Shown here piece by piece: positions 4,035 through 24,877 of a stretch of 39,223 nucleotides of DNA (the stretch's first letter is position 1; every line of letters starts with the position of its first letter). Made by a program: the position numbers and the translations under genes. Source of the stretch: an uncultured Hyphomicrobiaceae bacterium (lineage in GTDB: Bacteria; Pseudomonadota; Alphaproteobacteria; Rhizobiales; Hyphomicrobiaceae); contig CAYGRH010000001.1 of assembly GCA_964352165.1 (NCBI GenBank), positions 1-39,223 on the forward strand. Reading direction: 5' to 3'. The notes under the pieces were generated by a model. It was not told where the DNA came from. It searched no databases and worked only from the letters and a program-made list of their open reading frames with translations.

Positions 4035-4432
4035 TCTAGGAATATTCCAGCCGGCCGCGTCTGCGCTTCCCGGACGGCGCCCATTCCTGTCAGCCACCGG
4101 CTCCCTCCCAGGGGCTACGAAAAACCGGAATTTTTCTCTACGACAATCAGCTCAAACTGCCCCGAGGGCGCTGACGGGGGAACAGTCTGTATTCGCAATA
4201 TCATACGCTCAATAACAAAACGCACAAATTTCCAATTTTAAAAGCTGCGTGTACCAATAGTCCAATCCACCCGCATGTTGGCGAAGTTGCTAGGCAAATA
4301 CCTAGAATTGATACCCAACACCAATGCTTTCGTGAATAACTCCTAGGAACCTTCCCAATTCGCGCAATGCGAACGAATCAAACAGCAAGCTTTGTGGTTA
4401 TTTTCCGACACCAAAATAATTAGGAGGTGTCG

Positions 4433-5707
4433 ATGACATTCATTGAAAGTACATCCCCGTTCAATACGCTCGTAAATACGCCCAGAGATCCAGCCTTCTT
4501 AATTAAAAAGGTTGAAACGTATTACAGGGACCGGTTGAATAACACTTGGAACGGCGTCCATCCCATGAAAGGTAAGGCCCCAGGCCCATCCGATATCCAA
4601 GTCCGCACAAACGACTATCTCTGCTTAGCGTCTGACCCAAGAGTTATTGCCGCCGAAGTCAATCATTTGGAGGTTCATGGCCACGGTGAATCTGTGTCGA
4701 GAATATGGCTACATCACCAGAATGACATCTTACACCAATTCGAGGATAGGGTAGCTAATTTATTGGAAGCAGAAGCGGCCGTCCTTTGTAATTCAGGCTA
4801 TTGCGCTAATGTTGGCTTAATTCAATCTATTGTGGAACCTGGGTCTCCCGTCTTTATCGATATGAAAGCCCACGCATCGCTTTGGGAAGGTATAAAAAGT
4901 GCAGGTGCCAGGGCAATTCCGGTTCGCCATAATGATGCAGAGCACCTTTCCCGGCAAATCAAGAAAGAGGGGCAGGGAGTTATCGTTGTCGATGCCGTTT
5001 ATAGTATAGATGGAGATGTCTGCCCACTGAGAGAGTTTGTAGAGGTTTGCGAGCGTCATGGCTGCGCAATAATCGTGGATGAAACGCATTCATTCGGAAC
5101 ACAGGGGCGCTATGGCGCTGGGTTGACCGTCGCCCTAGGTCTTGCGGACCGAGTCCACTTTCGAACCATCGGGCTCTCTAAAGCGGTTCCATGTCGTGGG
5201 GGGCTGGTTATCTGCTCGCAACGGAATGCAGAGTTCCTCAGATACGAATCGCTCCCTGCGATTTTCAGCACGACGGTGCTCGGGCACGAAGTTGCGGCCT
5301 ATAACAAAGTGCTCGACATTTTTGCCAGCGAGCCGTGGCGGCGAAGCAAATTGCATAGCAACCACCGGCGGATACACGCAGCCCTAGATCAACTCGGTTA
5401 CAACGTGCAGGTTTCACGGTCCCAAATCATTGCGCTCGAGGCTGGGTCGATCTTGACAACGGTTAAGTTAAGAGACGCACTAGAACGGCGCGGGTTGTTT
5501 GGAGCCTTGTTTTTCCCGCCAGCGACCCCGGAAAAACGCTGCCTCATCCGCTTCACGGTTAATTGTGGATTGTCACCGGACGACATTAACCGAATCATAT
5601 CGATCTGTGCCGATGTGCGAACAGAAGTCGGCATGGAGCAATGGCCGTCCACGCGACGCAAGCATAAAGAAAACAGCCGTTCCAATTTAGGGGCTGTTGC
5701 GGCATAA
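4433..5707 (+). CDS. cqsA: CqsA/LqsA-type alpha-hydroxyketone autoinducer synthase (PLP-dependent, class I/II aminotransferase fold)
   Basis: AGGAGG lies 5 nt upstream of the ATG. Motifs TNDYLCLASDP, GYCANVGLIQSI, FIDMKAHASLWEGI, VVDAVYSIDG, VDETHSFGTQGRYGAGL, LPAIFSTTVL, SQIIALEAG and GLFGALFFPPATPEKRCLIRFTVN track V. cholerae CqsA segment by segment (from memory). Confidence 0.85.
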   Translation: MTFIESTSPFNTLVNTPRDPAFLIKKVETYYRDRLNNTWNGVHPMKGKAPGPSDIQVRTNDYLCLASDPRVIAAEVNHLEVHGHGESVSRIWLHHQNDILHQFEDRVANLLEAEAAVLCNSGYCANVGLIQSIVEPGSPVFIDMKAHASLWEGIKSAGARAIPVRHNDAEHLSRQIKKEGQGVIVVDAVYSIDGDVCPLREFVEVCERHGCAIIVDETHSFGTQGRYGAGLTVALGLADRVHFRTIGLSKAVPCRGGLVICSQRNAEFLRYESLPAIFSTTVLGHEVAAYNKVLDIFASEPWRRSKLHSNHRRIHAALDQLGYNVQVSRSQIIALEAGSILTTVKLRDALERRGLFGALFFPPATPEKRCLIRFTVNCGLSPDDINRIISICADVRTEVGMEQWPSTRRKHKENSRSNLGAVAA

Positions 5708-5714
5708 AATTCGG

Positions 5715-7082
5715 TTAGGCAACACATCTTGAGCGAGCCGATCCTTGCTGATCATTTGAACCGATTGGCGGCTCGCTTGGGACAACTGGTGGCAATTCGA
5801 TAATAATAGTTGTTCCCTCACCCAAAACAGTCTGGAAATGTATTGATCCTTGGAAGCTCTCCACAACATGCTTGCAGAATGCTAACCCAAGTCCGGTGCC
5901 TTCCATATATCGACCGCTTGTAGCAAAAGGAGTGAACACCGATTTCTGGATCTCCTTTGGAATGCCCGGGCCGTTGTCATTCACAATCAGGCTATTAACC
6001 CCGTCAATGCAATTGGTGGTTATAGTAATCATGTCACCTCTATCGACAGAAATCATCGCAAGGGAGTTCTTTAGGAGATTGAACAACACATGGACAAACA
6101 AAACCTTCGATCCAAAAAAATCAAAATCATGGTCAATATCCACGCGAACGGCCTCACGCTCACCTTTCCTAAAGGGATATCGAGCGATAGCATCCCGTAT
6201 TACGTCTCCAATTTTTGAGACCTGAAATTCCTCCTTGCTGAATCGGTCATGTTTTACCTTCAATAAGATCATATCAATCGCCATGCAGGCTCCTTCGGAA
6301 TGCTGCAAGATTCGAAGCAATGCTCCGCGGACGTCGCTATCGATCTCGACGAGTTCTTCAAGCTCAGATGAGGTCCCCTCGGCAGACAGGCCCGCCACCT
6401 TACTAATGACTTCATAGTCCTCTTGAATCCGCTCACAATCGAGTCTGATCCCAAGCAAAGGCGTCCTCATCTCATGAGCGATATTCGAAGCCAGCGCCTG
6501 GGCAGCGAGCAGTCTTTCGCCCGAAATTTGACGTTCACTATAGGTAAGAAAACCGATGGCAGAAATTGCGAACGCGTATATTGGGATACTCAAGAGAAAC
6601 GGCTCAGGTAGTGCCACCCATCCCTCCAGCGCAAGATATGCCGAAACGGCAGCCAAGTTTCCAACTACGAGAACGACCATCCCATTACGAAAGTCGTATA
6701 GTTGAACCACGAACAAAGTGGCAACCGTGGTAGACATTAACCAGGCATTGCTCCCATTATTCATCAAGAGCATGAATGTGAAGAAGAAGGGAAGACTGAA
6801 CAGGAGCGAAAAATACCCGAAGGCAAGATAGTACGGCTTAAGTTTTTCCGGCCACCAGCGCTCCGCTGCGAGGACCGAGCAAAAAAGCATACTGACTAAA
6901 CGAAGTTCGGGCGATTCGTATTCCTGCTTAAGCCAATATGTCCAAACCAAATAGTAGATGGGATGCGCACCCAATCCGAGAAGCCCGATGTAAGGCAGCT
7001 TGAACGGCGCGCGCTCGTGAAAACTGGCGTAAGATGCCTTAAGAGTTCCAATAGCCTTCTGGAGAAGTTGAAGTGGACTCAT
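5715..7082 (-). CDS. lqsS: Six-TM sensor histidine kinase of the CqsS/LqsS type, without a receiver domain
   Basis: Six hydrophobic segments in the first ~190 aa. H-box NIAHEMRTPLLGI and an HATPase region GPGIP...GTGLGLAFCKHVVESFQGSI. Convergent with cqsA, with only 7 nt between the stop codons. Confidence 0.75.
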   Translation of the reverse strand: MSPLQLLQKAIGTLKASYASFHERAPFKLPYIGLLGLGAHPIYYLVWTYWLKQEYESPELRLVSMLFCSVLAAERWWPEKLKPYYLAFGYFSLLFSLPFFFTFMLLMNNGSNAWLMSTTVATLFVVQLYDFRNGMVVLVVGNLAAVSAYLALEGWVALPEPFLLSIPIYAFAISAIGFLTYSERQISGERLLAAQALASNIAHEMRTPLLGIRLDCERIQEDYEVISKVAGLSAEGTSSELEELVEIDSDVRGALLRILQHSEGACMAIDMILLKVKHDRFSKEEFQVSKIGDVIRDAIARYPFRKGEREAVRVDIDHDFDFFGSKVLFVHVLFNLLKNSLAMISVDRGDMITITTNCIDGVNSLIVNDNGPGIPKEIQKSVFTPFATSGRYMEGTGLGLAFCKHVVESFQGSIHFQTVLGEGTTIIIELPPVVPSEPPIGSNDQQGSARSRCVA

Positions 7083-7218: not shown

Positions 7219-8169
7219 ATGCTGCCTCTTTATTACCCTACAACAGTTCTCGCGGTTGACGACGACAATGAATTTCTTGCGAGCTTTGAATACCGCTATC
7301 GGCGAAAATTCAAGTGTCATCTTACAAGCTCGCCCAGTGCTGCAATAGAACTCATAACCCAAGATGATAAAAAATTTCAAGAAAAGGTTCTGCTCAGCCA
7401 GTTTGGAGACATTGAGGGAGAAGAAGGCCCCAATATCGTTACACTGCGGCTATCGGAAATTGCTGCGATATCCGAGGCTCCTGACCACAGTGATAAAATA
7501 AGTGTTGTGGTAGTCGACTATGCCATGCCCGAAATGACAGGGGTAGAATTTTGCCGAGCTGTTGCCGATTGCAAGGTGAAGCGCCTGCTCTTGACAGGGA
7601 AAGCTGGATTGGAGCTTGCTGTGGACGCTTTCAACGAGGGGTTGATTGAATCTTTTGTTTTGAAGGGAGCTGCTGACGTTGGTTCAAAGATTGAGCGCGA
7701 AGTGAGAAGACTGCAGAACTTATTCTTTAAAGACGTAGCCGCCCCCATTACATCAATCAAAAATCTTCATGATTTTGAGTTCTTCCGGGACAAGGACTTT
7801 TGCCGACTCTTCGACAGACTGAAAAATGAGCTAAAAATATCTGAATACTTTCTTTCTGCATTTCCGCCAGGGTTAATAATCGTATCGCGTGATGGAAAAA
7901 AAAGGCTGCTACTTGTTTACAGTAAAGACATTATGCGCGCTCAATTCGAAACGGCGCTTCATGCAGAAGCGCCGTCGGAGTTATTGAGTATACTCGAAAG
8001 CAAGTCAGGAATTGTGGCATTTCCAGCTCCAATGGGGTTTTATAAAGAAACGTTTGCGGCGGTATGGGAAGACTACGTGTTTCCCTCGCAGCATGTGGCG
8101 GGCAGCGATCGGTGGTGGTGGACGATAGTCGAACCAATTGGTGATTTGAGCATGTTCAGGCCCCGCTGA
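7219..8169 (+). CDS. lqsR: LqsR-like response regulator: receiver domain with a large insertion plus an uncharacterised C-terminal domain
   Basis: VLAVDDDNEFL ... ISVVVVDYAMPEMTGVEF ... LLLTGKA gives the receiver signature, with the phospho-Asp near residue 100 after a ~40-aa insertion. There is no recognisable DNA-binding output. It is syntenic with the cqsA and lqsS homologues. Confidence 0.6.
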   Translation: MLPLYYPTTVLAVDDDNEFLASFEYRYRRKFKCHLTSSPSAAIELITQDDKKFQEKVLLSQFGDIEGEEGPNIVTLRLSEIAAISEAPDHSDKISVVVVDYAMPEMTGVEFCRAVADCKVKRLLLTGKAGLELAVDAFNEGLIESFVLKGAADVGSKIEREVRRLQNLFFKDVAAPITSIKNLHDFEFFRDKDFCRLFDRLKNELKISEYFLSAFPPGLIIVSRDGKKRLLLVYSKDIMRAQFETALHAEAPSELLSILESKSGIVAFPAPMGFYKETFAAVWEDYVFPSQHVAGSDRWWWTIVEPIGDLSMFRPR

Positions 8170-8219
8170 TATCTTTCGGAAGTAATCACCAAAATTGGAT
8201 AGTCCTGCTGCGTACAATA

Positions 8220-8507
8220 CTAATCAATTATACGCTGGCGGAGTGCGTAGGCAACTGCTTGTATCCTGGTTTTCACCTCGAGTTTTCGCTTGATGTTCTC
8301 GACATGATAATTGATGGTCTTAGGGCTAAGATTCAACTCTTGGCCAATTTGACTGTCGGACATACCCTCTGCAATCAGCGTCAGTATCGTAACTTCTCGG
8401 TTAGTGTAAATGCTTGCCGGAGTTTTATGAGGCATTGATTGTAACCTGATCACGCCGGTAACAGGGGTCCGCCCTGCAACATCCCTCAGTCGGTGATGCT
8501 GATTCAA
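8220..8507 (-). CDS. Small LuxR/GerE-type HTH regulator (HTH domain only)
   Basis: TNREVTILTLIAEGMSDSQIGQELNLSPKTINYHVENIKRKLEVKTRIQAVAYAL. Confidence 0.75.
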   Translation of the reverse strand: MNQHHRLRDVAGRTPVTGVIRLQSMPHKTPASIYTNREVTILTLIAEGMSDSQIGQELNLSPKTINYHVENIKRKLEVKTRIQAVAYALRQRIID

Positions 8508-8539
8508 TAAAGGACCGGTCTTGTCGCCACCAAGACACG

Positions 8540-8842
8540 CTAAATGCTTCGATAGAAGTGCTTGATCGGTATCTTGTAAATCTCCGCGATTGCAAAGAGC
8601 AACATTGGTGGCGTCCTATTAAAACCAACTTCTAGCCGGCGGAGCTCAAGTTCCGAAATGCCCAACTGTAATCCCAATTGAGAGGCCGGCATTCCGGCAG
8701 CTTCACGCAACCGCCGAATGCGGCGGCCAACGGCAAGGTCGATGGGGTGTAAAGCTGGTTCCGAGTGCTGAAAGTGCCGTGCTGCTATCTCAGACCTCTG
8801 ATCATCCGTGCCCGCGTTTGACAATGATCTGGCCCCCATCAT
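8540..8842 (-). CDS. XRE-family HTH regulator
   Basis: VGRRIRRLREAAGMPASQLGLQLGISELELRRLEVG. It sits 33 nt upstream of the LuxR-type gene on the same strand. Confidence 0.7.
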   Translation of the reverse strand: MMGARSLSNAGTDDQRSEIAARHFQHSEPALHPIDLAVGRRIRRLREAAGMPASQLGLQLGISELELRRLEVGFNRTPPMLLFAIAEIYKIPIKHFYRSI

Positions 8843-9061
8843 CGGGCGTTCCGAAGGAACGCTGATCGATTGTTTGTCAGCACTAGGTTGTCACCTAGTT
8901 CCTTGTGAAGCACAAGAGTGTTAGTAATCTAGCTTGATAATGGGCAGGTTGGGAACCTATATCTGCCCGTGGTTCTCGTTTTCCGCAACGTCCAGAAATC
9001 ATGGCGCTTTTTGGGTCGAACAACTAGGCCGTTGCTTGAGAATGAGCATTGTTGATTCAAA

Positions 9062-9316
9062 GTGGCGTTCGTTCAGACAGGCAAGGCCTTGACCATTTCG
9101 GCTGGTCCGACATCTAAATTGACAAAGATCGAAGAAGCAGTCTTGGAACTCTGCAGTGAGGGCTATTCTGATCTTGAGATCTCTCGGCAGCTTTATTCTT
9201 GCCCCCAAGTTGTGCGTAACATTTTTTTACGTATAAACAAAAAGTTAGGGGCAAAAAACAAGACGCATGCTGTCGCCTTATGGATTGGGAATCAGGACCC
9301 TATTTCAAAGCGATAA
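9062..9316 (+). CDS. Small LuxR/GerE-type HTH regulator (GTG start)
   Basis: LTKIEEAVLELCSEGYSDLEISRQLYSCPQVVRNIFLRINKKLGAKNKTHAVALWI. Confidence 0.6.
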   Translation: MAFVQTGKALTISAGPTSKLTKIEEAVLELCSEGYSDLEISRQLYSCPQVVRNIFLRINKKLGAKNKTHAVALWIGNQDPISKR

Positions 9317-9738: not shown

Positions 9739-10575
9739 ATGCAACTGAGTTCGGAATTGATGGCCTGGCTACCTAGCCTGCGTCGTTACGCCAGAGCGTT
9801 AACAGGTTCGCAGGACGCCGGTGATGATCTAGTCGTTAGGGCTTTAGAACGGCTTAGTATAGGTCCTCGTTTGGCCGACGACATTGCTCCGAAGATTGGT
9901 TTGTACAAAGTGGTCTCTGATGTTTGGAACAGTGTGATCGGGAAACACATTATGGATATGGCGGCCAAAGGAAGCTTGGCAGCGGCTGCTGACGAACGCA
10001 TCGGTCAACTCGAAGGGATACCCAGACAAGCCTTTTTACTCGTGGCTATGGAGAAGCTGACGCCGACCGAGGCGGCTATCGTACTTTCTCTTTCCGAGCA
10101 CGAATTTAAATCTGAACTCGCCAAAGCCCGGCACGACGTGGCCAGCCAAGTTGCAACCGATGTGCTTGTGATCGAAGATGAGCTTTTCATTGCTGCCGAT
10201 CTAGAGAAAATTCTCACTGATCTCGGCCACAATGTTGGTCCGGTAGCCCGGACCCATTCTCAAGCGGTTGCGGTCGCACGACGACAAAAGCCAGGTCTAA
10301 TAGTATCAGATATTCAGCTGGCTGATGACAGCAGTGGGATCGATGCTGTGCGTGATATTCTCGAATTTTCGTCAGCGCCAATAATCTTTGTCACATCTTA
10401 TCCAGAGTTATTGTTGACCGGGACACGACCCGAACCGATTTTTCTTATTAAGAAGCCGTTTTCAAGTGACGAAGTTCGTGGAGTGGTTTCTCAGGCTTTA
10501 TTTTTCCGACAGAATGCTCGCGCCTCGGATATTGCGGAAGGAGCGGTGCGATTATCGGGTCAGAGAAGTCACTGA
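9739..10575 (+). CDS. phyR: PhyR, the general-stress-response anti-anti-sigma response regulator (ECF-sigma-like N domain plus receiver)
   Basis: N terminus LPSLRRYARALTGSQDAGDDLVV and the region-4-like segment LTPTEAAIVLSL. Receiver VLVIEDELFIAADLEKIL...GLIVSDIQLADDSSGIDAV...IIFVTSYPE. RBS ctaggag. Confidence 0.9.
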   Translation: MQLSSELMAWLPSLRRYARALTGSQDAGDDLVVRALERLSIGPRLADDIAPKIGLYKVVSDVWNSVIGKHIMDMAAKGSLAAAADERIGQLEGIPRQAFLLVAMEKLTPTEAAIVLSLSEHEFKSELAKARHDVASQVATDVLVIEDELFIAADLEKILTDLGHNVGPVARTHSQAVAVARRQKPGLIVSDIQLADDSSGIDAVRDILEFSSAPIIFVTSYPELLLTGTRPEPIFLIKKPFSSDEVRGVVSQALFFRQNARASDIAEGAVRLSGQRSH

Positions 10576-13087: not shown

Positions 13088-13412
13088 CTCATCTCTGGTC
13101 CACCTATTTAGCAAAACGATAAATTTCTTTATCGCCCGAACCTTGCGCTTCTTGTTTAGGTCCGCGTGCGATCCAAAACGAATCGGCGAATAAAGCAAGA
13201 TTTGTACGCCCATTAGAATGTAAAAAATTAGGGCGCGACGACAATATGACCAGCTTATTTACCATGATCGAACCCCGATAATAATTTTTCGAACTATACC
13301 TCATTCAAAGCATCTCATTATAGTTGCGACAGCCCACCCATCAAGCCAGATGACCCCTTATTGGAATTGATGTGCTTCGAAAGTAAATTGAGGAACGGAC
13401 TCGGAGGTGAAG

Positions 13413-14874: not shown

Positions 14875-15018
14875 GTTTACCAGATCAGAATGAGTGTTTA
14901 CACTCTGCCGGATAATGATTCGAAGTAATGGTCATTCATCGCTCAGCGCTCGACCGTCTTTATGAATATTTGACCATTGAAAGTATATCGTCAATCAATT
15001 CAAGGAGCCGGGAGTGCC

Positions 15019-17465: not shown

Positions 17466-17753
17466 ACGTCTCCGATTGCTTCCGGAGGCGGACGGCTGTC
17501 GCATCAAACATCTGAACTTGGCTCGGTGCGCTATCGACAACGGACTGGCTCCAGCAAGAAAACGAAATCTCTTGCCAATGAGATGCACTCCGAGCCCAAA
17601 GGGTTCGCAACGTTCCAACTATTTTTCGCAATCTCAAGGTGTGGAGGAGATTTAGAGAAAAGTAGAAACGTTCACGAAAATTAAATAAACTTTTGGCGTA
17701 TGCTGGAAGAATTCCGATTCGAATAGTTTGTGCCTTGCGGCCGGAGCTTTACG

Positions 17754-20348
17754 ATGCCTAACAGAATTGGCAATGCCCATCGCCATCTCAGCTTGCTCGG
17801 GCTCTACCCGACGATTTTCGTCGTGGTTTTACTCATTGGGATCGCGTGGACAACGGCTGTCAATCGCGGCATTCAGTCAGCTCACGAAGAAATGTTGTTG
17901 CTAGAAGGAAAACTCAAGAACGTCGGTGTAACGCTCTCGCATAATGTGGCGCGAACGTCGAGCGAGCTCGACACGCTACTCCAATTTATGCGAGCTATGC
18001 GAAAGTCGAAAAGTACCGAGGTTCCGTGGTCTGAAATAGTGTCGGAAGACTACACGCTTAACCGGCATACAGTACAAATTGCTGTCATTGCAAAAGATGG
18101 AATGATGGTGACTAGCACAAAGATGCTCAACCCACAGAAGCCAGTTGACTTAAGCGATCGGGAGCATTATCGCGTCCACCTTCATGGGAGCAGCGACCAG
18201 CTTTTTATTAGTAAACCCGTAATTGGTCGCGCCTCCAAAAAATGGAGTGTTCAATACACGCGCCCCCTTTACGACTCTGCCGGTGCTTTCGACGGGGCAA
18301 TTGTTGTTTCCTTCGATCCGGATAAATTCACGCAAATGTATGAAAAATTAGACCTTGGAAATGGTGGCGTTATTATCGTCGGGACCGACTCTATAGTGCG
18401 CGCAGCCTCTGGACTTTTTTCGAGTTCTCTAGGCTCCAGAATTGAAATGTCGGGACATGGAGTCAAGTTCTTGCAATCTGACGGGGTCAAATCGATCGAT
18501 TCTGATCAGAATCGCTTCAAGGATATCGTGTACGTGACGCAGGATGTCGAGGGATACCCGCTGAAAGTTATTGTCGCTGCAGAGGCAAGGATATCGTTCT
18601 TTTCGATTGGCAATGCAATATATTTGCTAGTTGCTGCGGTTTTCTCGGTTATTGCGATCTATATTGGTGTAAGCAATTACTCGCATCGTCGAAGGGAGCT
18701 GGAGTTATTGGGTGAAAGCAATGCGGCCCTGATTGACAAGGGTGTCGCAGAAGCAGCCAACAAAACAAAAGGCGAGTTCTTAGCAATAATGAGCCACGAA
18801 ATTCGTACACCGCTAAATGGTGTTCTAGGATCACTGGACCTCATTTCCAGCCACAAACTTCCAGCAGAAGCTATGAAAAGCTTGGATGTTGCAAAGTCTT
18901 CGAGCGAATATCTGCTCTCACTTATCGACGACATACTCGTTTATTCAAAACTCGAAGCCGGAAAAATTGAACTCGATAAACAGCCGTTCTCACTCCTTAA
19001 GTTCATAGGGGATCTAGAGGTTTTCTTTCGGCCGCTTACGGAGTCGACGGATAACAAGTTTTGCGTTCAAATATTGGGTGAAATTCCGGGTCAAGTTTTA
19101 GGCGACCAGTTCAGGCTCCGGCAGGTTTTGCTCAATTTACTAGGGAATGCCAACAAGTTTACTAGCGCGGGGAGTATTCAACTGACTGTTCGCTCGCAAA
19201 GTAGCGCTGATCAAACTTCTGCGAAAATTCAGTTCTCGATAGAAGACACAGGGGTAGGAATACCCATCGATAAGCAAGCCTTGGTCTTCGAAAAATTTCA
19301 ATCTTTGGACGCAAGCTATTCGAGAAGATCGGATGGTACTGGTCTTGGCCTCGCCATTTGTAACAGTATAATGCGTGCCATGGGTAGTCGCTTGAACTTA
19401 GTCAGCGAATATGGTGTCGGAAGCACATTCTTTTTCGAAGTCGAATTACCCAAAGCTGAAAATGAAAATTTAATGCTTCAAGCGGTTCGAAAAGCCATTT
19501 CTAAAACCGACTTCAGAACATTAAGTATTCTGCTGGCGGAAGACAATGAAACTAACGCCTACATAGCGACAGAGTGCTTGGTTCGCGAGGGACATTCGGT
19601 GGTCCGCGCTACAGACGGAGTCCAAGCCGTTGCTCGGGCAAACGCGGTGCAATACGATCTCATCTTGATGGATGTATCTATGCCGAACATGGATGGCTTG
19701 ACGGCATCACTAGCGATCCGGTCTCATCATGGTCCCAATCAATTTACACCAATCGTCGCCCTGACCGCGCATGCAGAATCTGGAACGGAGGAAAAGATCA
19801 GAGAGTGTGGGATGAACGCATATTTGACGAAGCCCATTCGGCGAGAACGGCTGTTGATTGCAGTTCAAGAATTTAGTGTTCAATCTGCGGTCAACTTGTT
19901 GCGGACGAATAACGCCCTGATTGCTTCAAATGATTCTCAAGGGGACCTATCGATGTGCGTTAGTGATTGTGAATTAGAATCGGATGGCCTTGCTGCCTTC
20001 CTCCGCGATAGGGAAATCGATGAGTCATCTCCGTTATTCAGAATTTTTATAACCGAGATGGATACAAAGAGAACCCTTCTTGATCAAGCTATAGCCGAAA
20101 AGAATATTAAAGCGGTCGGGCGCATCGCTCATGCTGTTTTGGGGAGTTCATCAACAATCGGTGCCGCCAAGCTCGCCGCGCATTGCAGGCTTTTGGAAGC
20201 CGAATGTCGCAGTCCTCGCCAAGTCGACTGGCGCCTTGCTATATCGACTCTGCACGCGATCGACAGCACTGTTAACGATTTCAAGGCCATCGTTGCCACG
20301 ATGTCGGAACGAAAGAAAGTCGAGGTAGCAACTGTTTCCGCCGCCTAG
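17754..20348 (+). CDS. Hybrid sensor histidine kinase: TM, Cache-like periplasmic domain, TM, HisKA, HATPase, REC, Hpt
   Basis: DREHYRVHL...ISKPVIGRASKKWSVQYTRPLYD (Cache-like). FLAIMSHEIRTPLNGV (H-box). GTGLGLAICNSIM. ILLAEDNETN...LILMDVSMPNMDG (REC). HAVLGSSSTIGAAKL (Hpt). Confidence 0.9.
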   Translation: MPNRIGNAHRHLSLLGLYPTIFVVVLLIGIAWTTAVNRGIQSAHEEMLLLEGKLKNVGVTLSHNVARTSSELDTLLQFMRAMRKSKSTEVPWSEIVSEDYTLNRHTVQIAVIAKDGMMVTSTKMLNPQKPVDLSDREHYRVHLHGSSDQLFISKPVIGRASKKWSVQYTRPLYDSAGAFDGAIVVSFDPDKFTQMYEKLDLGNGGVIIVGTDSIVRAASGLFSSSLGSRIEMSGHGVKFLQSDGVKSIDSDQNRFKDIVYVTQDVEGYPLKVIVAAEARISFFSIGNAIYLLVAAVFSVIAIYIGVSNYSHRRRELELLGESNAALIDKGVAEAANKTKGEFLAIMSHEIRTPLNGVLGSLDLISSHKLPAEAMKSLDVAKSSSEYLLSLIDDILVYSKLEAGKIELDKQPFSLLKFIGDLEVFFRPLTESTDNKFCVQILGEIPGQVLGDQFRLRQVLLNLLGNANKFTSAGSIQLTVRSQSSADQTSAKIQFSIEDTGVGIPIDKQALVFEKFQSLDASYSRRSDGTGLGLAICNSIMRAMGSRLNLVSEYGVGSTFFFEVELPKAENENLMLQAVRKAISKTDFRTLSILLAEDNETNAYIATECLVREGHSVVRATDGVQAVARANAVQYDLILMDVSMPNMDGLTASLAIRSHHGPNQFTPIVALTAHAESGTEEKIRECGMNAYLTKPIRRERLLIAVQEFSVQSAVNLLRTNNALIASNDSQGDLSMCVSDCELESDGLAAFLRDREIDESSPLFRIFITEMDTKRTLLDQAIAEKNIKAVGRIAHAVLGSSSTIGAAKLAAHCRLLEAECRSPRQVDWRLAISTLHAIDSTVNDFKAIVATMSERKKVEVATVSAA

Positions 20349-20427: not shown

Positions 20428-21186
20428 TTAGTCCATAAACCAGGGCTTTACACTTGTACCTTTCTTGATCGAATACATGTAGAATATCGGAAGGTTGGGG
20501 GGGAAAATCGCGCGGAAGTCGGCTCCGTTGAACGTGATGAAAATAGAATTCGGGAAAACCTCTTGAACAGCTAGGCGCTCGATCATATTCATGCGGAAAT
20601 AGTCCAGAGCCCCTTTCCGTGCGCAACCATCACCTCGATACCATTTTGCGGCGCACTCCACTAGTTTTTCCGTTAACTCATGTTCGTGAGGAGCCAGGTC
20701 CTGCTGACGCGATTCCATGTTTATTTTTGCTTTCCGACATACTTCACTCAGTCGAGCAACAGTGAACAAGCGCGGATCCGCATGCATACGAATATCATTT
20801 CCATAGAAATTGATTTCCTCAGGATCGTAGCCGTTTAAATGGGCGTGTGTATCGGTATAAAGGATGTCAAAACTAGCGCCCCTATTGTACGCCTCACATA
20901 TTCTCTCCGCCATTCCAGTGAGAAAAGTTAGGCACTTATCTTCATTGATGCCGGCATGGGTACGGCGCCCTTTGCCCCAGTACATGACGAAGCTGATTGG
21001 CTCGCTTCTTCGGATGGCATTCGAGACGAAACGCCGCAAAAGCGTGTTATCGGAGGGCTGAGACCTTTTGTAGCTCCACTTATTGAAGCTTTTCAATGCG
21101 CTATCCACAAGCTGTGAATGGTTGGTCTCGGACAGACTTTCAACGGGCGAAGCGTCATCAACGCGATACTGGCCAGCCAAATACAT
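20428..21186 (-). CDS. Hypothetical 252-aa cytoplasmic protein, family not recognised
   Basis: A long clean ORF with coding-like composition and conserved-looking blocks EPISFVMYWGKG, DILYTDTHAHLNGY and IFITFNG. Confidence 0.65.
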   Translation of the reverse strand: MYLAGQYRVDDASPVESLSETNHSQLVDSALKSFNKWSYKRSQPSDNTLLRRFVSNAIRRSEPISFVMYWGKGRRTHAGINEDKCLTFLTGMAERICEAYNRGASFDILYTDTHAHLNGYDPEEINFYGNDIRMHADPRLFTVARLSEVCRKAKINMESRQQDLAPHEHELTEKLVECAAKWYRGDGCARKGALDYFRMNMIERLAVQEVFPNSIFITFNGADFRAIFPPNLPIFYMYSIKKGTSVKPWFMD

Positions 21187-21592: not shown

Positions 21593-22366
21593 TTGACACT
21601 CGTCCTTCTTGCAAGCAGGGAGAAGGCATTCGAAGAGGAGGAGCTTACTTTGGCTTGTGTCGTGCGTTTTCTTGCTCACGGTGACGCCGCGTTGCTGGTC
21701 GAGTTCGGTGACAAGATACGGGGTGATATCAATGCCCGTGTTCTGGCGCTTGATAGGCGTATTGGCAATCAGGGGCTGGTTGGTTTCATAGAAGCAGTGC
21801 CAACCTATCGGTCACTGCTGATCCATTACGACCCACTTCAAACGACTTTCGGAAAGCTGCGGACGTCCGTCCGAGAGGCTTTGGCTGAAACGGATGATGT
21901 TGTGTTTAGTACGAACCGGAATTGGTCGGTACCTGTCGTCTACGGAGGAGAGGCTGGTATCGATATTGATTGGCTTGCTGCGCAACACGGTATCGATCGG
22001 CGGACGTTAATAGCCATTCACAGTAATGGATGCTATCGGGTCTGCATGATCGGGTTCATGCCAGGTTTTGCATATTTGAGCGGCCTTGATCCTAGTGTTG
22101 CAACTCCGCGGAGGAAAGAACCTCGACCTCACGCACCACAAGGTACGATTTCGATTGGCGGTGAGCAGACCGCAGTTCAGTCGGTAGCAGGCCCAAGTGG
22201 TTGGCACTGGATCGGGCGTACTCCACTTAAAGTTTACGACCCTCACCGCACCCCGATATGCCTCTTTGAGCCCGGTGACACGCTTCGATTTATCCCTATT
22301 GCCGAAGAAATGTGGGACGAAGAAACGCTCAAATGCGAATCCGCCATTCACGAGTCGATACCATGA
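21593..22366 (+). CDS. pxpB: 5-oxoprolinase subunit PxpB (KipI / allophanate hydrolase subunit 1 family)
   Basis: GDAALLVEFGD, VPTYRSLLIHYDP, IGFMPGFAYLSGLDP, RRKEPRPHAPQGTISIGGEQTAV, GPSGWHWIGRTP. The true start is probably TTG at 21650, which sits 6 nt after gaggaggag. Confidence 0.8.
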   Translation: MTLVLLASREKAFEEEELTLACVVRFLAHGDAALLVEFGDKIRGDINARVLALDRRIGNQGLVGFIEAVPTYRSLLIHYDPLQTTFGKLRTSVREALAETDDVVFSTNRNWSVPVVYGGEAGIDIDWLAAQHGIDRRTLIAIHSNGCYRVCMIGFMPGFAYLSGLDPSVATPRRKEPRPHAPQGTISIGGEQTAVQSVAGPSGWHWIGRTPLKVYDPHRTPICLFEPGDTLRFIPIAEEMWDEETLKCESAIHESIP

Positions 22367-23379
22367 GCGCTCTTCATGTACGTGCACCTGGTATTTCCAG
22401 CATCCAGGATGCCGGACGATACGGCCTTCAACGATATGGGGTGGCGCCTGCAGGGGCAATGGACTTAGGCTCGCTTGCCCTTGGCAATCTCTTGGTCGGC
22501 AATGACCCACGAGCAGCAGCGCTCGAAATCGGACCTATACCTGCGACCTTTAGGATTGAGCAAGCTCCTGCCCGAATAGCTGTAACAGGCGCATCCCGTA
22601 TTCTGAAGTCCGGTCAGCTCGTAAAACCAGACCATCAAACATTTATTGTTGCACCAGGTGAGGAGTTAGAGCTCGGCAGCGCACATAACGGCACGTTTTC
22701 GTACCTTTGTATCGAAGGATCCTTTAAGGTGGTACCTCATCTAGGAAGCAATTCCATCGACGAACGCGCCGGCCTCGGTCGACCCTTTGCCAGACGCATA
22801 CAGCGTAATGATATCCTAGAGATCGGCACCGCCGGCCCGAGGAGGGCCGAGCGACGCTCGCAACCCCCGATATTCTGTGGCACACCAATTCGAGTCATAA
22901 TGGGACCGCAGGACGATCACTTTTTCCCCGAAACCTTGAACCAATTTCTCGATTCGACTTGGCGTATCGCTCATAAAAGCGACCGAATGTGCTTTAGACT
23001 AGACGGACCTCTCCTAGCGCACGCACGAGGTTACAATATTGTTTCCGACGCCACAGTGAAAGGATCTATCCAAATCGCTGGTAGCGGTCAGCCATACGTA
23101 TTGATGGCCGATCGAGGAACGACTGGCGGTTACCCAAAAATTGCAGCTATCGCAACTATTGACATTGACCGTTTTGCGCAATGCCCTCCTGGTACTGAGA
23201 TTCGGTTCCAAGCAATATCACTTCTGGAAGCGCAGTCATTACTTCAAAAAATAGCCATGCCTCCGCGGCTTGAGCTCTTAACGGGTCTTCCCCTCATCGA
23301 CATAGATGCCCTCCATATTGCCAACTTGGCAGGTGAAGTTACGGACGCAAGAGCCGACGATCATTACTGTTTTTCATAG
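22363..23379 (+). CDS. pxpC: 5-oxoprolinase subunit PxpC (KipA / allophanate hydrolase subunit 2 family)
   Basis: ATGA overlap with pxpB. Motifs SSIQDAGRYGLQRYGVAPAGAMD, LGNLLVGN and ADRGTTGGYPKIA. Confidence 0.8.
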   Translation: MSALHVRAPGISSIQDAGRYGLQRYGVAPAGAMDLGSLALGNLLVGNDPRAAALEIGPIPATFRIEQAPARIAVTGASRILKSGQLVKPDHQTFIVAPGEELELGSAHNGTFSYLCIEGSFKVVPHLGSNSIDERAGLGRPFARRIQRNDILEIGTAGPRRAERRSQPPIFCGTPIRVIMGPQDDHFFPETLNQFLDSTWRIAHKSDRMCFRLDGPLLAHARGYNIVSDATVKGSIQIAGSGQPYVLMADRGTTGGYPKIAAIATIDIDRFAQCPPGTEIRFQAISLLEAQSLLQKIAMPPRLELLTGLPLIDIDALHIANLAGEVTDARADDHYCFS

Positions 23380-23415
23380 TAGAGTTTGTATTTTTGGGAG
23401 TTGACGAGAATTTAC

Positions 23416-24147
23416 TTAACGGAATAACATTTGCGTCCCTATGAAGAATAAGACCCACAGGACCATCGCCTTAAAACGTGACGGAGAAACCCTCTCCCTC
23501 AATCGGACACCTACTGCCATTCCCGCCAGTGCAGGAACAATCGCTAAAATAGAACAGATTGCCAACTGCATTGTGAGTACTCCCGTTAATGCGAGCCCTA
23601 AAGAAAGGGCGGAAGTCGCGACTAGGACTACAATATTGATTGCTTGAACGGTTCTGTGAGCATCAAGATTCAGAGCTAAGATGTAAGGCACAATTGGCAC
23701 AACCTGAGAGCCCGTTAGACCGGTAAGTATTCCATTTGTGAAGCCTACTGGAATTTCAAGCGGTTTGTGGAGCCGGGTTGCAAGTCTAAAATCTGGTTTA
23801 AGTAGCCCGAAAACAGAATACGACAATATAGCTATGCCAAGCACTCTTGCGGCTAGCGTTTGATCCACCCAAAGAAGCAAACCGATGCCAAGCGCAATCC
23901 CGGGCAACATTGAGATATATAGCCACCTGAAGGTCAAAATCGTTTCAGAAAAATGGCTCGACGCAAGAATCAATCCGATATTCGTTGCTACCGCAGGCGC
24001 AAGAACAACCGCCATCGCTGTTTTAAGTCCGAGTGCCAAAACAAGGAACGGTAACGCGCAGGATGCGTAACCCAAGCCGGTTGCACCCTTGATGATCCCA
24101 GCCATGAAAAGGCCGATCCCTGCAATCGCTACAATATCAGCTGTCAT
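23416..24147 (-). CDS. TauE/SafE (TSUP) family membrane permease
   Basis: A 243-aa polytopic membrane protein with a Gly-rich first helix (GIIKGATGLGYASCALPFL) and an internal repeat architecture typical of the family. Confidence 0.7.
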   Translation of the reverse strand: MTADIVAIAGIGLFMAGIIKGATGLGYASCALPFLVLALGLKTAMAVVLAPAVATNIGLILASSHFSETILTFRWLYISMLPGIALGIGLLLWVDQTLAARVLGIAILSYSVFGLLKPDFRLATRLHKPLEIPVGFTNGILTGLTGSQVVPIVPYILALNLDAHRTVQAINIVVLVATSALSLGLALTGVLTMQLAICSILAIVPALAGMAVGVRLRERVSPSRFKAMVLWVLFFIGTQMLFR

Positions 24148-24877
24148 TGATGTTCATATTTCGAAAAGGTGGATGCCAATATAGCGGCTAGTAGGCGCGG
24201 AAGGTGCAATAGTCTTTCAATCTTCAACGAAATAAAGTTAGGGTCAAATGATTTCTAGAAGTTCAGGCGAGCCCTAAACTGCCTCTTTGGGAAACGGTTC
24301 AGTGGCTCCCTTGGGCGTCGAGACGGGCCATTTTCTTGCTAGCTATAATTCAATATTGCAAGGTAGTTGCACCGCACGTCCTTTGATTAGTAAAGTGACG
24401 TAGCCTGACGAACCGAGGAATCTTTTGTCAAGACTTGGCTGCCGAGCAGTATTGAATGCTGGGCCCTGCCAATAGTCTTTCTCGTTAAAGAGGCGACTGT
24501 GACTGACTATTTCTGGACAGCCTCTAGTGATGAACAGCAACACATAGGGGCAGGGTCACGGGACATCGCTCGAGGACCTACGCACCAACGGCAACCTGAT
24601 CGTGTGATCTTCACCACACCGGCGAGAGAATAATTGGGTGCAACAGCGATGCTGCGCCCAACCCCGATTGTCTTGCTTGACTGGTCGAAGAAATAGCTGA
24701 ACAGATAGTTGATTCTCAACCGCAGGTAGGTGGGCGGCGCCTGTTGATTGGGGATTTTTCGTTCTCATGATCGTTAATCAAAATTCTGGGACATTATGGG
24801 GGTCCCTTTGTGATTTGAGTGCGGCGGCAAGGTTGCCAACCAACGTTTTCATTGCGCAGTTCAGGGGGCGGGGACCG

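What the first reader, a model, noticed from the sequence alone, without database searches (positions are those of the whole stretch)
4200..24200. AT-richer ICE cargo that is almost purely a signalling circuit: alpha-hydroxyketone quorum sensing, PhyR-NepR-EcfG, c-di-GMP and a hybrid kinase
**Seen in sequence.**
- Between a decayed IS3 orfA (about 3560-4034) and the GC-rich tolC region, base composition drops visibly relative to both flanks.
- About 13 of roughly 19 genes here are regulators or second-messenger components.
  - cqsA/lqsS/lqsR homologues.
  - Two LuxR-type HTH genes and one XRE HTH gene.
  - phyR, nepR-ecfG and a PAS-GGDEF-EAL protein.
  - Two PilZ proteins and a Cache-HK-REC-Hpt hybrid kinase.

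**Established knowledge.**
- PhyR/NepR/EcfG is a chromosomal core regulon of Alphaproteobacteria.
- Cqs/Lqs systems are best known from Vibrio and Legionella.

**Inference.**
- The island may be a self-contained, horizontally mobile regulatory cassette that links cell density, stress sigma control and c-di-GMP.
- It may also feed into ICE behaviour.
- I do not know of such a combination being described.
Basis: partly seen in the sequence, partly recalled or inferred. Interest (0 to 1): 0.78.

Follow-up and report, generated by a model that had tools for sequence, protein, structure and literature searches.

The report
Low-GC signalling gene block between mobile DNA
A 20-kb stretch of 19 genes, 13 of them signalling genes (a quorum-sensing cassette, a second stress-sigma switch, c-di-GMP parts and a sensor kinase), sits between mobile-element DNA and is kept intact in one related lineage. 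It is real and unusual, but it is a mosaic of known modules, and neither its status as ICE cargo nor any cross-wiring between modules is shown.

Summary
GC is about 0.49 between 4256 and about 24200-24766, against about 0.60 on the flanks. All named genes are present, and 13 of 19 are signalling genes.

- **Conservation.** The block is collinear (69-80% nucleotide identity) with one other metagenomic lineage whose flanks are unrelated. dS is 0.8-1.95 and dN/dS is 0.06-0.18 for 13 genes, so it is a co-inherited, functional unit.
- **Mosaic structure.** It has three modules:
  - a 5-kb cqsA-lqsS-lqsR-gerE-xre-gerE cassette, also seen next to recombinases or a coupling protein elsewhere, with its own conserved operator (CTAGG-N6-CCTAG) before cqsA and xre;
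  - phyR-PAS/GGDEF/EAL-orf148-PilZ plus nepR-ecfG;
  - a dCache hybrid kinase with orf252, a KipI/KipA-like pair and TauE.
- **Origin of modules two and three.** They match chromosomal neighbourhoods of GC-rich Alphaproteobacteria.
- **What is not settled.** "ICE cargo" is plausible, given a tRNA-Phe, an intact serine recombinase, ArdA and a coupling protein. It is unproven: both copies sit at GC3 of about 0.5, so the block may be resident chromosome between two mobile elements. No sequence evidence links the modules to each other or to transfer genes.

Verdict: new variant of a known kind, moderate interest.

The parts
1..54 (+). 3' part of a tRNA gene, anticodon loop TTGAAAA (GAA, Phe), ending in CCA
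   Evidence: Rfam RF00005, 35 bits, cut at the 5' end. Sequence read. 94-96% identical to tRNA loci of many Alphaproteobacteria.
2..1588 (-). Intact large serine recombinase. The ORF runs through the tRNA and off the left end of the window.
   Evidence: An open frame of at least 529 aa. Pfam Resolvase, Recombinase and Zn_ribbon_recom.
2656..3195 (-). ArdA-type antirestriction protein
   Evidence: PF07275, 37.2 bits against a cut-off of 27.
3770..4050 (-). Frameshifted IS3-family orfA remnant at the left border
   Evidence: Six-frame reading. HTH_Tnp_1 at 22.2 bits, E 1.7e-4, below the cut-off.
4256..24181 (.). The conserved low-GC block: 19 genes, collinear with the relative contig L001+L086
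   Evidence: blastn at 69-80% identity over the whole length, with no similarity outside it. GC3 0.46-0.57. dN/dS 0.06-0.18.
4290..4305 (.). Operator palindrome CTAGG-N6-CCTAG, 128 bp upstream of cqsA
   Evidence: Exact match, conserved at the homologous place in L001/L002/L003. It is the only 5+5 palindrome recurring in intergenic DNA of both copies.
4433..5707 (+). cqsA/lqsA-type alpha-hydroxyketone autoinducer synthase
   Evidence: NF005526, 471 bits against 428. PLP lysine in GLSKA. 88% identical to the relative's copy.
5715..7082 (-). LqsS-like membrane histidine kinase without a receiver domain
   Evidence: HisKA and HATPase_c. His204 and hydrophobic N-terminal half. Found next to cqsA in 72 of 85 fetched cqsA loci (80 genome loci plus 5 metagenome contigs, not split).
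7219..8169 (+). LqsR-family response regulator
   Evidence: PDB 6sy9, E 1e-33 over residues 4-268. Asp100 in VVVVDYAMP.
8220..8435 (-). Small GerE/LuxR-type HTH protein (gerE1), convergent with lqsR
   Evidence: PF00196, 70 bits. Found at the same position in L001, L004, L094, L097 and in 8 of 67 genome loci.
8540..8842 (-). XRE-type HTH protein
   Evidence: HTH_31 and HTH_3. Conserved in L001 and L094.
8883..8898 (.). Second copy of the CTAGG-N6-CCTAG operator, between xre and gerE2
   Evidence: Also present at the equivalent place in L001, L002 and L004.
9062..9316 (+). Second small GerE-type HTH protein (gerE2)
   Evidence: PF00196, 30.2 bits. 58% identical to L001 and 47% to L004.
9739..10575 (+). 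PhyR anti-anti-sigma response regulator
   Evidence: NF006623, 294 bits against 240. PhyR_sigma2, PhyR_sigma-like and REC domains. Asp191 present.
10723..12510 (+). PAS_7-GGDEF-EAL protein: SGDEF with an RxxD I-site, and intact EAL, DDFGTG and EGVE motifs
   Evidence: 65-68% identical to the gene that follows phyR in L091, L092 and L099.
12641..13087 (+). orf148, a small protein with one membrane-like segment
   Evidence: No family match. Conserved after the GGDEF-EAL gene in L091, L092 and L099 at 43-47%. dN/dS 0.09.
13407..14261 (+). PilZ1: an unknown N-terminal domain plus PilZ with RxxxR and DxSxxG
   Evidence: 317 cluster representatives at E up to 1e-3. 53% identical to the L092 homologue.
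14262..14864 (.). GC-rich insert (0.63) present only in the window. It holds an IS1380-type transposase C-terminal remnant at 14441-14740 on the minus strand.
   Evidence: No similarity to the relative at this place. DDE_Tnp_1_4, 77.8 bits, profile positions 348-430 of 435.
15016..15213 (+). NepR anti-sigma factor
   Evidence: PF18557, 41.7 bits against 25.7.
15210..15845 (+). EcfG-type ECF sigma factor, overlapping nepR by 4 bp
   Evidence: Sigma70_r2, Sigma70_r4_2 and PhyR_sigma2. 59% identical to the sigma of the canonical locus in L091.
15953..16876 (-). PilZ2, with the same architecture as PilZ1
   Evidence: 57% identical to the relative's copy, which shows a frame change.
16992..17618 (-). 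orf208, unknown, with one membrane-like segment
   Evidence: 48% identical to the relative. No family match.
17754..20348 (+). dCache-HisKA-HATPase-REC-Hpt hybrid kinase
   Evidence: Called product of 864 aa. 50-52% identical to chromosomal homologues in L088 and L098.
20428..21186 (-). orf252, a conserved partner of the kinase and of TauE. Function unknown.
   Evidence: 51% identical in L088 and L098, 42% in L096. Weak DIT1_PvcA match (E 0.075) and weak PDB 3e59 match (E 2.4).
21593..23379 (+). CT_C_D and CT_A_B pair (PxpB/PxpC or KipI/KipA type), overlapping genes, with no PxpA nearby
   Evidence: PF02682 at 224 bits and PF02626 at 246 bits. Same pair next to the kinase in L088 and L098.
23416..24147 (-). 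TauE/SafE-family membrane transporter
   Evidence: PF01925, 92 bits.
24767..26287 (+). TolC-type outer membrane factor, start of the GC-rich right flank
   Evidence: PF02321. GC3 0.70.
30479..31090 (-). Small serine resolvase
   Evidence: PF00239, 150 bits.
35107..38915 (.). Transfer backbone segment: orf207, orf146R, orf98, type IV coupling protein (36865-38616) and orf138
   Evidence: T4SS-DNA_transf, TraG-D_C and TrwB. The same five genes are collinear in L101, L103 and L104 at 45-67%. A relaxase and ArdC lie downstream in L101.

Best explanation
**What it is**

The feature is a 20-kb accessory regulatory gene block. It was acquired as one piece from a low-GC alphaproteobacterium and now lies inside, or directly beside, an integrated transfer-competent element at tRNA-Phe. 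It joins three modules.

**Module 1 (4256-9316): alpha-hydroxyketone quorum sensing**
- CqsA makes the signal. The LqsS-like kinase senses it and passes phosphate to the LqsR-type regulator.
- The three small HTH proteins (GerE, XRE, GerE) are the likely DNA-binding output.
- They autoregulate through the palindrome CTAGG-N6-CCTAG in front of cqsA and of xre/gerE2.

**Module 2 (9739-17618): accessory general-stress partner switch with c-di-GMP parts**
- Phosphorylated PhyR binds NepR and frees the EcfG sigma.
- The switch is embedded in the c-di-GMP genes that follow phyR in related chromosomes.
- Those genes are a PAS-SGDEF-EAL enzyme, most likely a phosphodiesterase, a small membrane protein and two PilZ receptors.

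**Module 3 (17754-24147): sensor kinase block**
- It holds a periplasmic dCache hybrid kinase with an Hpt domain, orf252, a KipI/KipA-like pair and a TauE transporter.
- The kinase is the best candidate for the input to PhyR.

**Shown**
- Gene identities, intact catalytic motifs, collinear conservation and purifying selection.
- The operator.
- The recurrent pairwise linkages in other genomes.

**Inferred**
- Every phosphotransfer and every regulatory arrow between modules.
- Capture by the mobile element.
For: **Identity and integrity**
- Family matches are above curated cut-offs.
- Catalytic and binding motifs are intact.

**One unit**
- Collinearity with L001+L086 runs from 4256 to 24181. 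The flanks are unrelated.
- dS is 0.8-1.95 and dN/dS is 0.06-0.18 for 13 genes, including unknown ORFs.
- GC3 is uniform across the three modules.

**Mobile setting**
- The left side carries a tRNA-Phe, an intact serine recombinase and ArdA. The right side carries a resolvase and a coupling protein.
- The coupling-protein backbone is conserved in three metagenome contigs. A relaxase and ArdC lie downstream there, and the genes upstream vary.
- An IS remnant lies at the left border and another inside the block.

**The Lqs cassette moves on its own**
- It sits beside a coupling protein, a toxin-antitoxin gene and an IS in L004.
- It sits between two large serine recombinases in L094.

**Operator**
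- There are two exact copies against about 0.04 expected (my own 4^-10 arithmetic).
- Both are conserved in the relative and in L004.

**Recurrent pairwise linkages elsewhere**
- lqsR is followed by PAS_7-GGDEF-EAL in 28 of 80 genome loci.
- phyR is followed by GGDEF-EAL, orf148 and PilZ in L092 and L099; L091 has the first three without the PilZ gene.
- A PhyR paralogue lies directly upstream of the hybrid kinase in L098.
- The kinase, orf252, CT_C_D/CT_A_B and TauE lie together in L088-L090 and L098.
- orf252, TauE and a dCache-GGDEF-EAL gene lie 5-9 kb from cqsA in L096.
Against: - No relaxase, mating-pore genes or att repeat are in the window, so one continuous element is not shown.
- Both copies have GC3 of about 0.5 although dS is near saturation, while their GC-rich flanks are unrelated. 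This fits residence in a low-GC chromosome.
- No exact EcfG promoter (GGAAC-N16/17-CGTT) is in the window.
  - The one-mismatch site before nepR is only partly conserved, and the one before lqsS is not conserved.
- No HWE or HisKA_2 kinase, the usual PhyR partner, is in the block.
- The operator is absent from modules 2 and 3 and from the backbone.
- Only two lineages carry the whole block. The next-best homologues are at most 71% (CqsA), 58% (PhyR) and 52% (kinase) identical.
Confidence: 0.5

Rival explanations
1. The low-GC block is ordinary resident chromosome of an alphaproteobacterium with about 49% GC. The GC-rich DNA on both sides belongs to two separate, later-arriving mobile elements. 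One is a small serine-recombinase element in tRNA-Phe. The other is a mobilisable element with the coupling protein. On this reading the block is not cargo and does not travel.
For: - Both copies keep GC3 of about 0.5 at dS of about 1 or more, which suggests compositional equilibrium with a low-GC host. The GC-rich flanks are unrelated in the two lineages.
- In the relative, low-GC DNA continues for 591 bp past the end of homology.
- Modules 2 and 3 are chromosomal in other genomes, next to valS, tolC or mreBC.
- Only 3 of 80 cqsA loci in species genomes show mobile-element genes. This used a limited query set.
Against: - Mobile DNA richer in GC than its host is unusual. This rests on general knowledge and was not tested here.
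- The left border falls at the same place in both lineages, yet no tRNA or att repeat is there.
- A 4.2-kb element holding only a recombinase and ArdA would be small.
- The closest Lqs cassettes elsewhere are in mobile settings.
- Genes upstream of the conserved coupling-protein backbone vary between relatives, as expected for a cargo region.
Confidence: 0.3
2. The genes are functional, but the three modules are merely neighbours with no regulatory connection. Each works separately: quorum sensing, the stress sigma switch, c-di-GMP and the kinase. They have stayed together only because the two copies are close relatives.
For: - The only repeated conserved operator is confined to the Lqs cassette.
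- No exact EcfG promoter is present.
- Each module occurs without the others in other genomes.
- The whole combination is known from only two lineages.
Against: - Gene order is unbroken over 20 kb at near-saturated dS, while intergenic DNA has diverged beyond recognition.
- Independent pairwise linkages exist elsewhere:
  - lqsR with PAS_7-GGDEF-EAL in 28 loci;
  - phyR with GGDEF-EAL and PilZ;
  - PhyR with the hybrid kinase;
  - cqsA near orf252, TauE and a dCache gene.
Confidence: 0.35
3. The contig is an assembly chimera that joins low-GC and GC-rich genomes at repeats.
For: - There are two sharp composition changes.
- The junctions rest on this single contig.
- The relative's contigs from two samples stop at the same base. 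This hints at a repeat or variable junction there.
Against: - Two chimeric joins would be needed.
- No repeat is shared between the junctions.
- The relative's independent contigs also join GC-0.60 integrase DNA to the same left border in three samples.
Confidence: 0.03

Closest known systems
Legionella pneumophila Lqs system (lqsA-lqsR-hdeD-lqsS) and Vibrio CqsA/CqsS
   Same: - A CqsA/LqsA-type synthase above the equivalog cut-off.
- An adjacent membrane kinase without a receiver domain, as in LqsS.
- An LqsR-family regulator matching the solved LqsR-type structure 6sy9.
- lqs clusters are already reported in Alpha-, Beta- and Gammaproteobacteria (PMC10653808).
   Different: - The gene order is cqsA, lqsS (opposite strand), lqsR, with no hdeD.
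- Three small HTH genes and a shared palindromic operator are attached.
- The cassette occurs in mobile settings.
- CqsS of Vibrio carries a receiver domain. This kinase does not.
Alphaproteobacterial general stress response core (PhyR-NepR-EcfG), including paralogous sets as in Sphingopyxis granuli TFA and Methylobacterium extorquens (PMC9303464, PMC4814048)
   Same: - All three proteins are present and intact.
- nepR overlaps ecfG.
- The proteins are 55-59% identical to those of canonical chromosomal loci.
   Different: - phyR and nepR-ecfG are on the same strand and 4.4 kb apart, rather than divergent neighbours.
- No HWE/HisKA_2 kinase is in the block.
- No exact GGAAC-N16/17-CGTT promoter is present.
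- The set lies beside mobile-element genes.
Quorum-sensing control of transfer on ICEMlSymR7A and Ti plasmids (TraR/TraI with the QseM/QseC switch). Named from my own knowledge.
   Same: A signal synthase with small HTH regulators next to conjugation-type genes.
   Different: - The signal here is an alpha-hydroxyketone, not an acyl-homoserine lactone.
- No operator copy or other link to the transfer genes was found.
c-di-GMP enzymes carried as cargo by SXT/R391 ICEs (DgcK, DgcL). Named from my own knowledge.
   Same: Second-messenger genes carried next to an integrative transfer element.
   Different: Here a GGDEF-EAL enzyme comes with two PilZ receptors, a sigma switch and a quorum-sensing cassette, rather than as single cyclase genes.
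Plasmid-borne PhyR in the Roseobacter group, for example the Dinoroseobacter shibae 153-kb and Roseobacter litoralis 94-kb replicons
   Same: A PhyR homologue outside the main chromosome.
   Different: - Those copies are only 41-46% identical.
- 20 of the 23 records are typed non-mobilizable.
- No cqsA is on those replicons.

Membership tests
Alpha-hydroxyketone quorum sensing (Cqs/Lqs) | CqsA/LqsA-type PLP-dependent synthase | tested here: met
   NF005526 equivalog, 471 bits against a cut-off of 428. Lysine in GLSKA.
Alpha-hydroxyketone quorum sensing (Cqs/Lqs) | Cognate membrane sensor kinase encoded next to the synthase | tested here: met
   HisKA and HATPase_c with a hydrophobic N-terminal half. 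Adjacent in 72 of 85 fetched cqsA loci (80 genome loci plus 5 metagenome contigs, not split). The number of membrane spans was not settled.
Alpha-hydroxyketone quorum sensing (Cqs/Lqs) | LqsR-family response regulator | tested here: met
   PDB 6sy9, E 1e-33 over 265 residues. Asp100 present.
Alpha-hydroxyketone quorum sensing (Cqs/Lqs) | Production of and response to an alpha-hydroxyketone | not testable with these tools
   Needs chemistry and genetics.
PhyR-NepR-EcfG general stress partner switch | PhyR with a sigma-like N-terminal domain and a C-terminal receiver | tested here: met
   NF006623, 294 bits against 240. Pfam PhyR_sigma2, PhyR_sigma-like and Response_reg.
PhyR-NepR-EcfG general stress partner switch | NepR anti-sigma gene directly upstream of an EcfG-type sigma gene | tested here: met
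   PF18557, 41.7 bits. 4-bp overlap with the sigma gene. The sigma is 59% identical to that of the canonical locus in L091.
PhyR-NepR-EcfG general stress partner switch | HWE/HisKA_2 kinase in the locus | tested here: not met
   No such domain is in the block. It is present in the chromosomal loci L091 and L099.
PhyR-NepR-EcfG general stress partner switch | EcfG-type promoter GGAAC-N16/17-CGTT before nepR-ecfG or phyR | tested here: inconclusive
   No exact site. A one-mismatch site at 14849-14874 lies 142 bp before nepR and is only partly conserved. The exact motif is also absent from the nepR-phyR spacer of the canonical loci L091 and L099.
Integrative and conjugative element | Site-specific recombinase at a tRNA gene | tested here: met
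   Intact large serine recombinase abutting tRNA-Phe.
Integrative and conjugative element | Type IV coupling protein | tested here: met
   PF02534 at 154 bits, PF12696 and PF10412.
Integrative and conjugative element | Relaxase and mating-pore (T4SS) genes | tested here: not met
   None in the window. A relaxase lies downstream of the homologous coupling protein in L101, so it may lie beyond the contig end.
Integrative and conjugative element | Two att ends enclosing the block | tested here: inconclusive
   No repeat of the tRNA 3' end in the window. Serine recombinases need no long repeat, and the right end is outside the contig.
c-di-GMP signalling module | Catalytic GGDEF and EAL motifs, and PilZ binding motifs | tested here: met
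   - SGDEF (degenerate first residue) with an RxxD site.
- EAL, DDFGTG and EGVE intact.
- RxxxR and DxSxxG present in both PilZ proteins.
5-oxoprolinase PxpABC | PxpA (LamB/YcsF) together with PxpB and PxpC | tested here: not met
   Only CT_C_D and CT_A_B are present. No LamB_YcsF match in the block or in L088 and L098. A KipI/KipA-like role is an inference, not a test.

The most novel reading that the evidence does not exclude
The block could be a portable behaviour module with two self-made signals.
- **Signal one:** the alpha-hydroxyketone from CqsA.
- **Signal two:** an unknown small molecule made by orf252, possibly with the CT_C_D/CT_A_B pair. TauE would export it and the dCache hybrid kinase would read it.
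- **Convergence:** both inputs would meet on an accessory PhyR-NepR-EcfG switch, with the Hpt domain phosphorylating PhyR instead of an HWE kinase. They would also act on c-di-GMP read by the two PilZ proteins.
- **Consequence:** a recipient cell would acquire density-dependent stress and lifestyle control in one transfer. The small GerE/XRE proteins would then be the missing DNA-binding output of LqsR-type regulators.
Probability: 0.1. Interest if true: 0.8.

Novelty: new variant of a known kind. Interest (0 to 1): 0.48.

Why it matters
- **Transferable regulation.** If the block really travels, whole regulatory sub-networks can move between Alphaproteobacteria as a unit. These would include a complete second general-stress sigma switch, not just enzymes or resistance genes.
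- **Testable leads that do not depend on mobility:**
  - A conserved operator and small HTH partners could explain how LqsR-type regulators, which lack a DNA-binding domain, reach promoters.
  - A conserved phyR-PAS/GGDEF/EAL-PilZ neighbourhood ties the general stress response to c-di-GMP.
  - A PhyR gene next to a dCache-Hpt hybrid kinase suggests an input route other than HWE kinases.

Tried and rejected
- **Plasmid similarity.** A megablast of the block and of both flanks against plasmids found only the tRNA end.
- **PilZ1 genome scan.** PilZ1 as a single-protein anchor in species genomes gave no confirmed locus.
- **att or terminal repeats.** None were found.
- **EcfG promoters.**
  - There are no exact sites in the window.
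  - The lqsS-upstream one-mismatch site is not conserved and was rejected.
  - The site at 17194-17219 is conserved but lies inside orf208, so it stays a lead only.
- **Generic promoter and terminator scan.** Counts were at chance level.
- **orf252 structure.** The single-sequence AlphaFold model had pLDDT 41.6 and was not used. No fold search was run.
- **"Decayed" recombinase.** I first read the left-end recombinase as decayed. The full frame is open, so I withdrew this.
- **DUF736.** My guess that 38499-38915 is DUF736 got no Pfam support and was dropped.
- **TolC as leftover synteny.** The tauE-valS-tolC order of L088 suggested it, but the two TolC proteins are only 23% identical, so I rejected it.
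- **valS remnant.** None was found at the right border.
- **Literature.**
  - No paper was found that places an alpha-hydroxyketone system or EcfG/PhyR on an ICE.
  - The PhyR + c-di-GMP + PilZ search returned only titles unrelated to PhyR; I suspect "Phyre" matches but did not check.

Full report
**1.

- In 1-kb windows, GC is 0.59-0.61 up to 4000 and 0.45-0.55 from 4000 to 24500. One bump lies at 13500-15000. GC is 0.54-0.65 further right.
- Third-position GC is 0.46-0.57 for every block gene and 0.62-0.73 for every flank gene tested.
  - CqsA, above the NCBIfam equivalog cut-off;
  - a membrane histidine kinase;
  - an LqsR-type regulator matching PDB 6sy9 at E 1e-33;
  - two GerE HTH proteins and one XRE HTH protein;
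  - PhyR, above its cut-off;
  - NepR, overlapping an ECF sigma gene;
  - PAS_7-GGDEF-EAL;
  - two PilZ proteins and a dCache-HisKA-HATPase-REC-Hpt kinase.
- The remaining genes are orf148, orf208, orf252, a CT_C_D/CT_A_B pair and a TauE transporter.
- Catalytic and ligand-binding motifs are intact. The one exception is that the GGDEF motif reads SGDEF.

**2. Borders and surroundings**

- The window is a whole contig.
- *Left flank.*
  - The contig starts inside a tRNA with anticodon GAA.
  - A large serine recombinase reads through that tRNA. It is intact, not decayed.
  - ArdA follows, then a weak IS3 orfA remnant on the minus strand.
- *Right flank.*
  - This side holds TolC, LysE, a resolvase and a type IV coupling protein.
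  - The five-gene segment around the coupling protein recurs in three metagenome contigs at 45-67% identity.
  - In one of them a relaxase and ArdC lie downstream. The genes upstream differ from contig to contig.
- The flanks are therefore mobile-element DNA. The window itself shows no relaxase, no mating-pore genes and no att repeat.

**3. A second copy fixes the unit**

- The closest CqsA (88% identical) lies on a 22.9-kb contig from another sample.
- Joined from two look-ups, that contig is collinear with window 4256-24181 at 69-80% nucleotide identity. All 19 genes are in the same order.
- Nothing outside those borders is similar.
  - On its left the relative has a GC-0.60 tyrosine integrase.
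  - On its right it has 591 bp of low-GC non-coding DNA before the contig ends.
- For 13 genes, dS is 0.8-1.95 and dN/dS is 0.06-0.18. The genes are functional, and the order has survived near-saturating synonymous change.
- The GC-rich insert at 14262-14864 is an IS1380-type remnant found only in the window.

**4. The block is a mosaic**

- *Module 1: the Lqs cassette.*
  - Among 80 species genomes with a CqsA relative, most of the fetched loci also carry the kinase and LqsR (72 and 70 of all 85 loci scored). Only the close relative carries PhyR or anything further right.
  - The six-gene cassette cqsA-lqsS-lqsR-gerE-xre-gerE recurs on its own:
    - beside a coupling protein, a toxin-antitoxin gene and an IS (L004);
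    - between two large serine recombinases (L094);
    - beside DUF4238/HNH genes (L097).
- *Modules 2 and 3: chromosomal counterparts.* These lie in GC 0.56-0.61 genomes.

| Locus | Gene order |
|---|---|
| L091 | HWE kinase, ecfG, nepR, then phyR-PAS_7/GGDEF/EAL-orf147 on the other strand, near valS |
| L092/L093 | mreBC, phyR, GGDEF-EAL, orf164, PilZ |
| L099/L100 | phyR, ecfG-nepR, then a second phyR, GGDEF-EAL, orf149, PilZ and an HWE kinase |
| L088-L090 | a response regulator, hybrid kinase, orf261, CT_C_D, CT_A_B, TauE, then valS, DUF2497, tolC |
| L098 | as L088-L090 (hybrid kinase to TauE only), with a PhyR paralogue directly before the kinase |

**5. Evidence on wiring**

- One palindrome, CTAGG-N6-CCTAG, occurs exactly twice in the window, before cqsA and between xre and gerE2.
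  - About 0.04 copies are expected by chance.
  - Both copies are kept in the relative, and one is kept in L004.
  - It is the only 5+5 palindrome that recurs in intergenic DNA of both copies.
  - It is most simply the operator of one of the cassette's HTH proteins. That gives an autoregulatory loop inside module 1.
  - It is absent from modules 2 and 3 and from the backbone.
- The canonical EcfG promoter is absent in exact form.
  - A one-mismatch site lies 142 bp before nepR.
  - Another, at 17194-17219, is perfect in the relative at the same place but lies antisense inside orf208.
  - The site before lqsS is not conserved.
- Direct sequence evidence for cross-talk between modules is therefore lacking.
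- Indirect evidence is the set of independent pairwise linkages elsewhere:
  - lqsR is followed by a full-length PAS_7-GGDEF-EAL gene in 28 of 80 loci;
  - phyR with GGDEF-EAL and, in L092/L093 and L099/L100 but not L091, PilZ;
  - PhyR with the hybrid kinase;
  - orf252, TauE and a dCache-GGDEF-EAL gene a few kb from cqsA.

**6. Cargo or resident chromosome?**

- *For cargo.*
  - Mobile genes of similar composition lie on both sides.
  - IS remnants lie at the border and inside the block.
  - The region upstream of the coupling-protein backbone varies between relatives.
  - The nearest Lqs cassettes are in mobile settings.
- *Against cargo.*
  - Both copies keep GC3 of about 0.5 at near-saturated dS, while their GC-rich neighbours are unrelated.
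  - Either the block joined GC-rich DNA recently in both lineages, or it is resident in low-GC genomes and the mobile DNA is the newcomer.
- I put cargo, inside or at the edge of an integrated element, at about 0.5. I put resident chromosome at about 0.3. A chimera is unlikely.

**7. Comparison with what is known**

- lqs clusters are already reported across Alpha-, Beta- and Gammaproteobacteria (PMC10653808).
- Paralogous PhyR/NepR/EcfG sets are known (PMC9303464, PMC4814048).
- PhyR occurs on 23 plasmid records and CqsA on 9 records. The CqsA records are mostly replicons of 0.9-2.5 Mb, which I take to be chromids.
- From my own knowledge, quorum sensing and c-di-GMP genes are also known on ICEs.
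- I found no paper placing an alpha-hydroxyketone system or the stress switch on an ICE. The search covers open-access text only.
- The combination and the cassette's operator look undescribed, but each part belongs to a known kind.

**8. Verdict**

- This is a new variant of a known kind: a regulatory gene block associated with mobile DNA.
- Interest is moderate, at 0.48.
- The most useful leads are:
  - the operator with the small HTH proteins as a possible LqsR output;
  - the conserved phyR/c-di-GMP/PilZ neighbourhood;
  - the adjacency of PhyR and the dCache-Hpt kinase.

Noticed in passing
window 2-1588 (minus strand): The large serine recombinase is intact. Its reading frame continues through the antisense of the tRNA-Phe gene and off the contig end. 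The ORF lister omitted it because it runs off the end.
   Followed up: yes
window 4290-4305 and 8883-8898; L001 2311-2326 and 6905-6920; L004 7077-7092: A conserved 16-bp palindrome, CTAGG-N6-CCTAG, lies in the promoter regions of cqsA and of xre/gerE2. It is probably the operator of a cassette HTH protein.
   Followed up: yes
window 17194-17219; L086 9444-9469: An EcfG-like -35/-10 motif lies on the plus strand, about 535 bp upstream of the hybrid kinase gene. It reads GGTAC-N17-CGTT in the window and is a perfect GGAAC-N17-CGTT in the relative. It sits inside the only nucleotide-conserved patch of orf208.
   Followed up: partly
L017-L050, L059, L081 (28 loci), about 0.2-2 kb after lqsR: In the Hyphomicrobium-type genomes, a full-length PAS_7-GGDEF-EAL gene follows cqsA-lqsS-lqsR on the same strand. 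This conserved link between Lqs and c-di-GMP genes did not come up in the literature searches run here, none of which targeted it.
   Followed up: partly
L098 8886-12321: A PhyR paralogue (35% identical to the block's PhyR) lies 60 bp upstream of the homologous dCache-Hpt hybrid kinase on the same strand. This suggests a non-HWE input to a PhyR-type regulator.
   Followed up: partly
window 20428-21186; L096 524-4832: orf252 always travels with TauE and a dCache sensor, which is a kinase here and a GGDEF-EAL protein in L096. It has weak matches to the isonitrile-synthase family PvcA/DIT1 (Pfam E 0.075, PDB E 2.4). It may be a small-molecule enzyme.
   Followed up: partly
window 21593-23379: The CT_C_D/CT_A_B pair (PxpB/PxpC type) is conserved beside the hybrid kinase in three lineages, without any PxpA gene. 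This recalls the KipI/KipA kinase inhibitor pair of Bacillus, a comparison from my own knowledge.
   Followed up: no
window 14262-14864: A GC-0.63 insert holds the last 83 residues of an IS1380-type transposase. It is absent from the relative and explains the GC bump inside the block.
   Followed up: yes
L086 8218-9101 and L087 7302-8185: The relative's PilZ2 matches in two different frames. This points to a frameshift or a shorter protein, and it is identical in two samples.
   Followed up: no
window 34591-35058 and 35925-36365: Two paralogous small proteins with an N-terminal CxxC-type motif lie upstream of the coupling protein. The second is conserved with orf207, orf98 and orf138 in all relatives of the backbone.
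   Followed up: partly
window 32557-33696: A 379-aa ORF with an HEFSH motif (a possible zinc protease signature) has no family match. It is not found in relatives of the backbone.
   Followed up: no
window 9347-9661: The 104-aa ORF between gerE2 and phyR has no homologue in the relative, and the DNA there is not conserved. It is probably not a gene.
   Followed up: yes
L013, L014, L016, L076 at about 13155-13188 (minus strand): An exact GGAAC-N16/17-CGTT motif lies antisense inside lqsR in four related genomes. A second recurrent site lies about 2.6 kb upstream of cqsA in several Hyphomicrobium loci.
   Followed up: no
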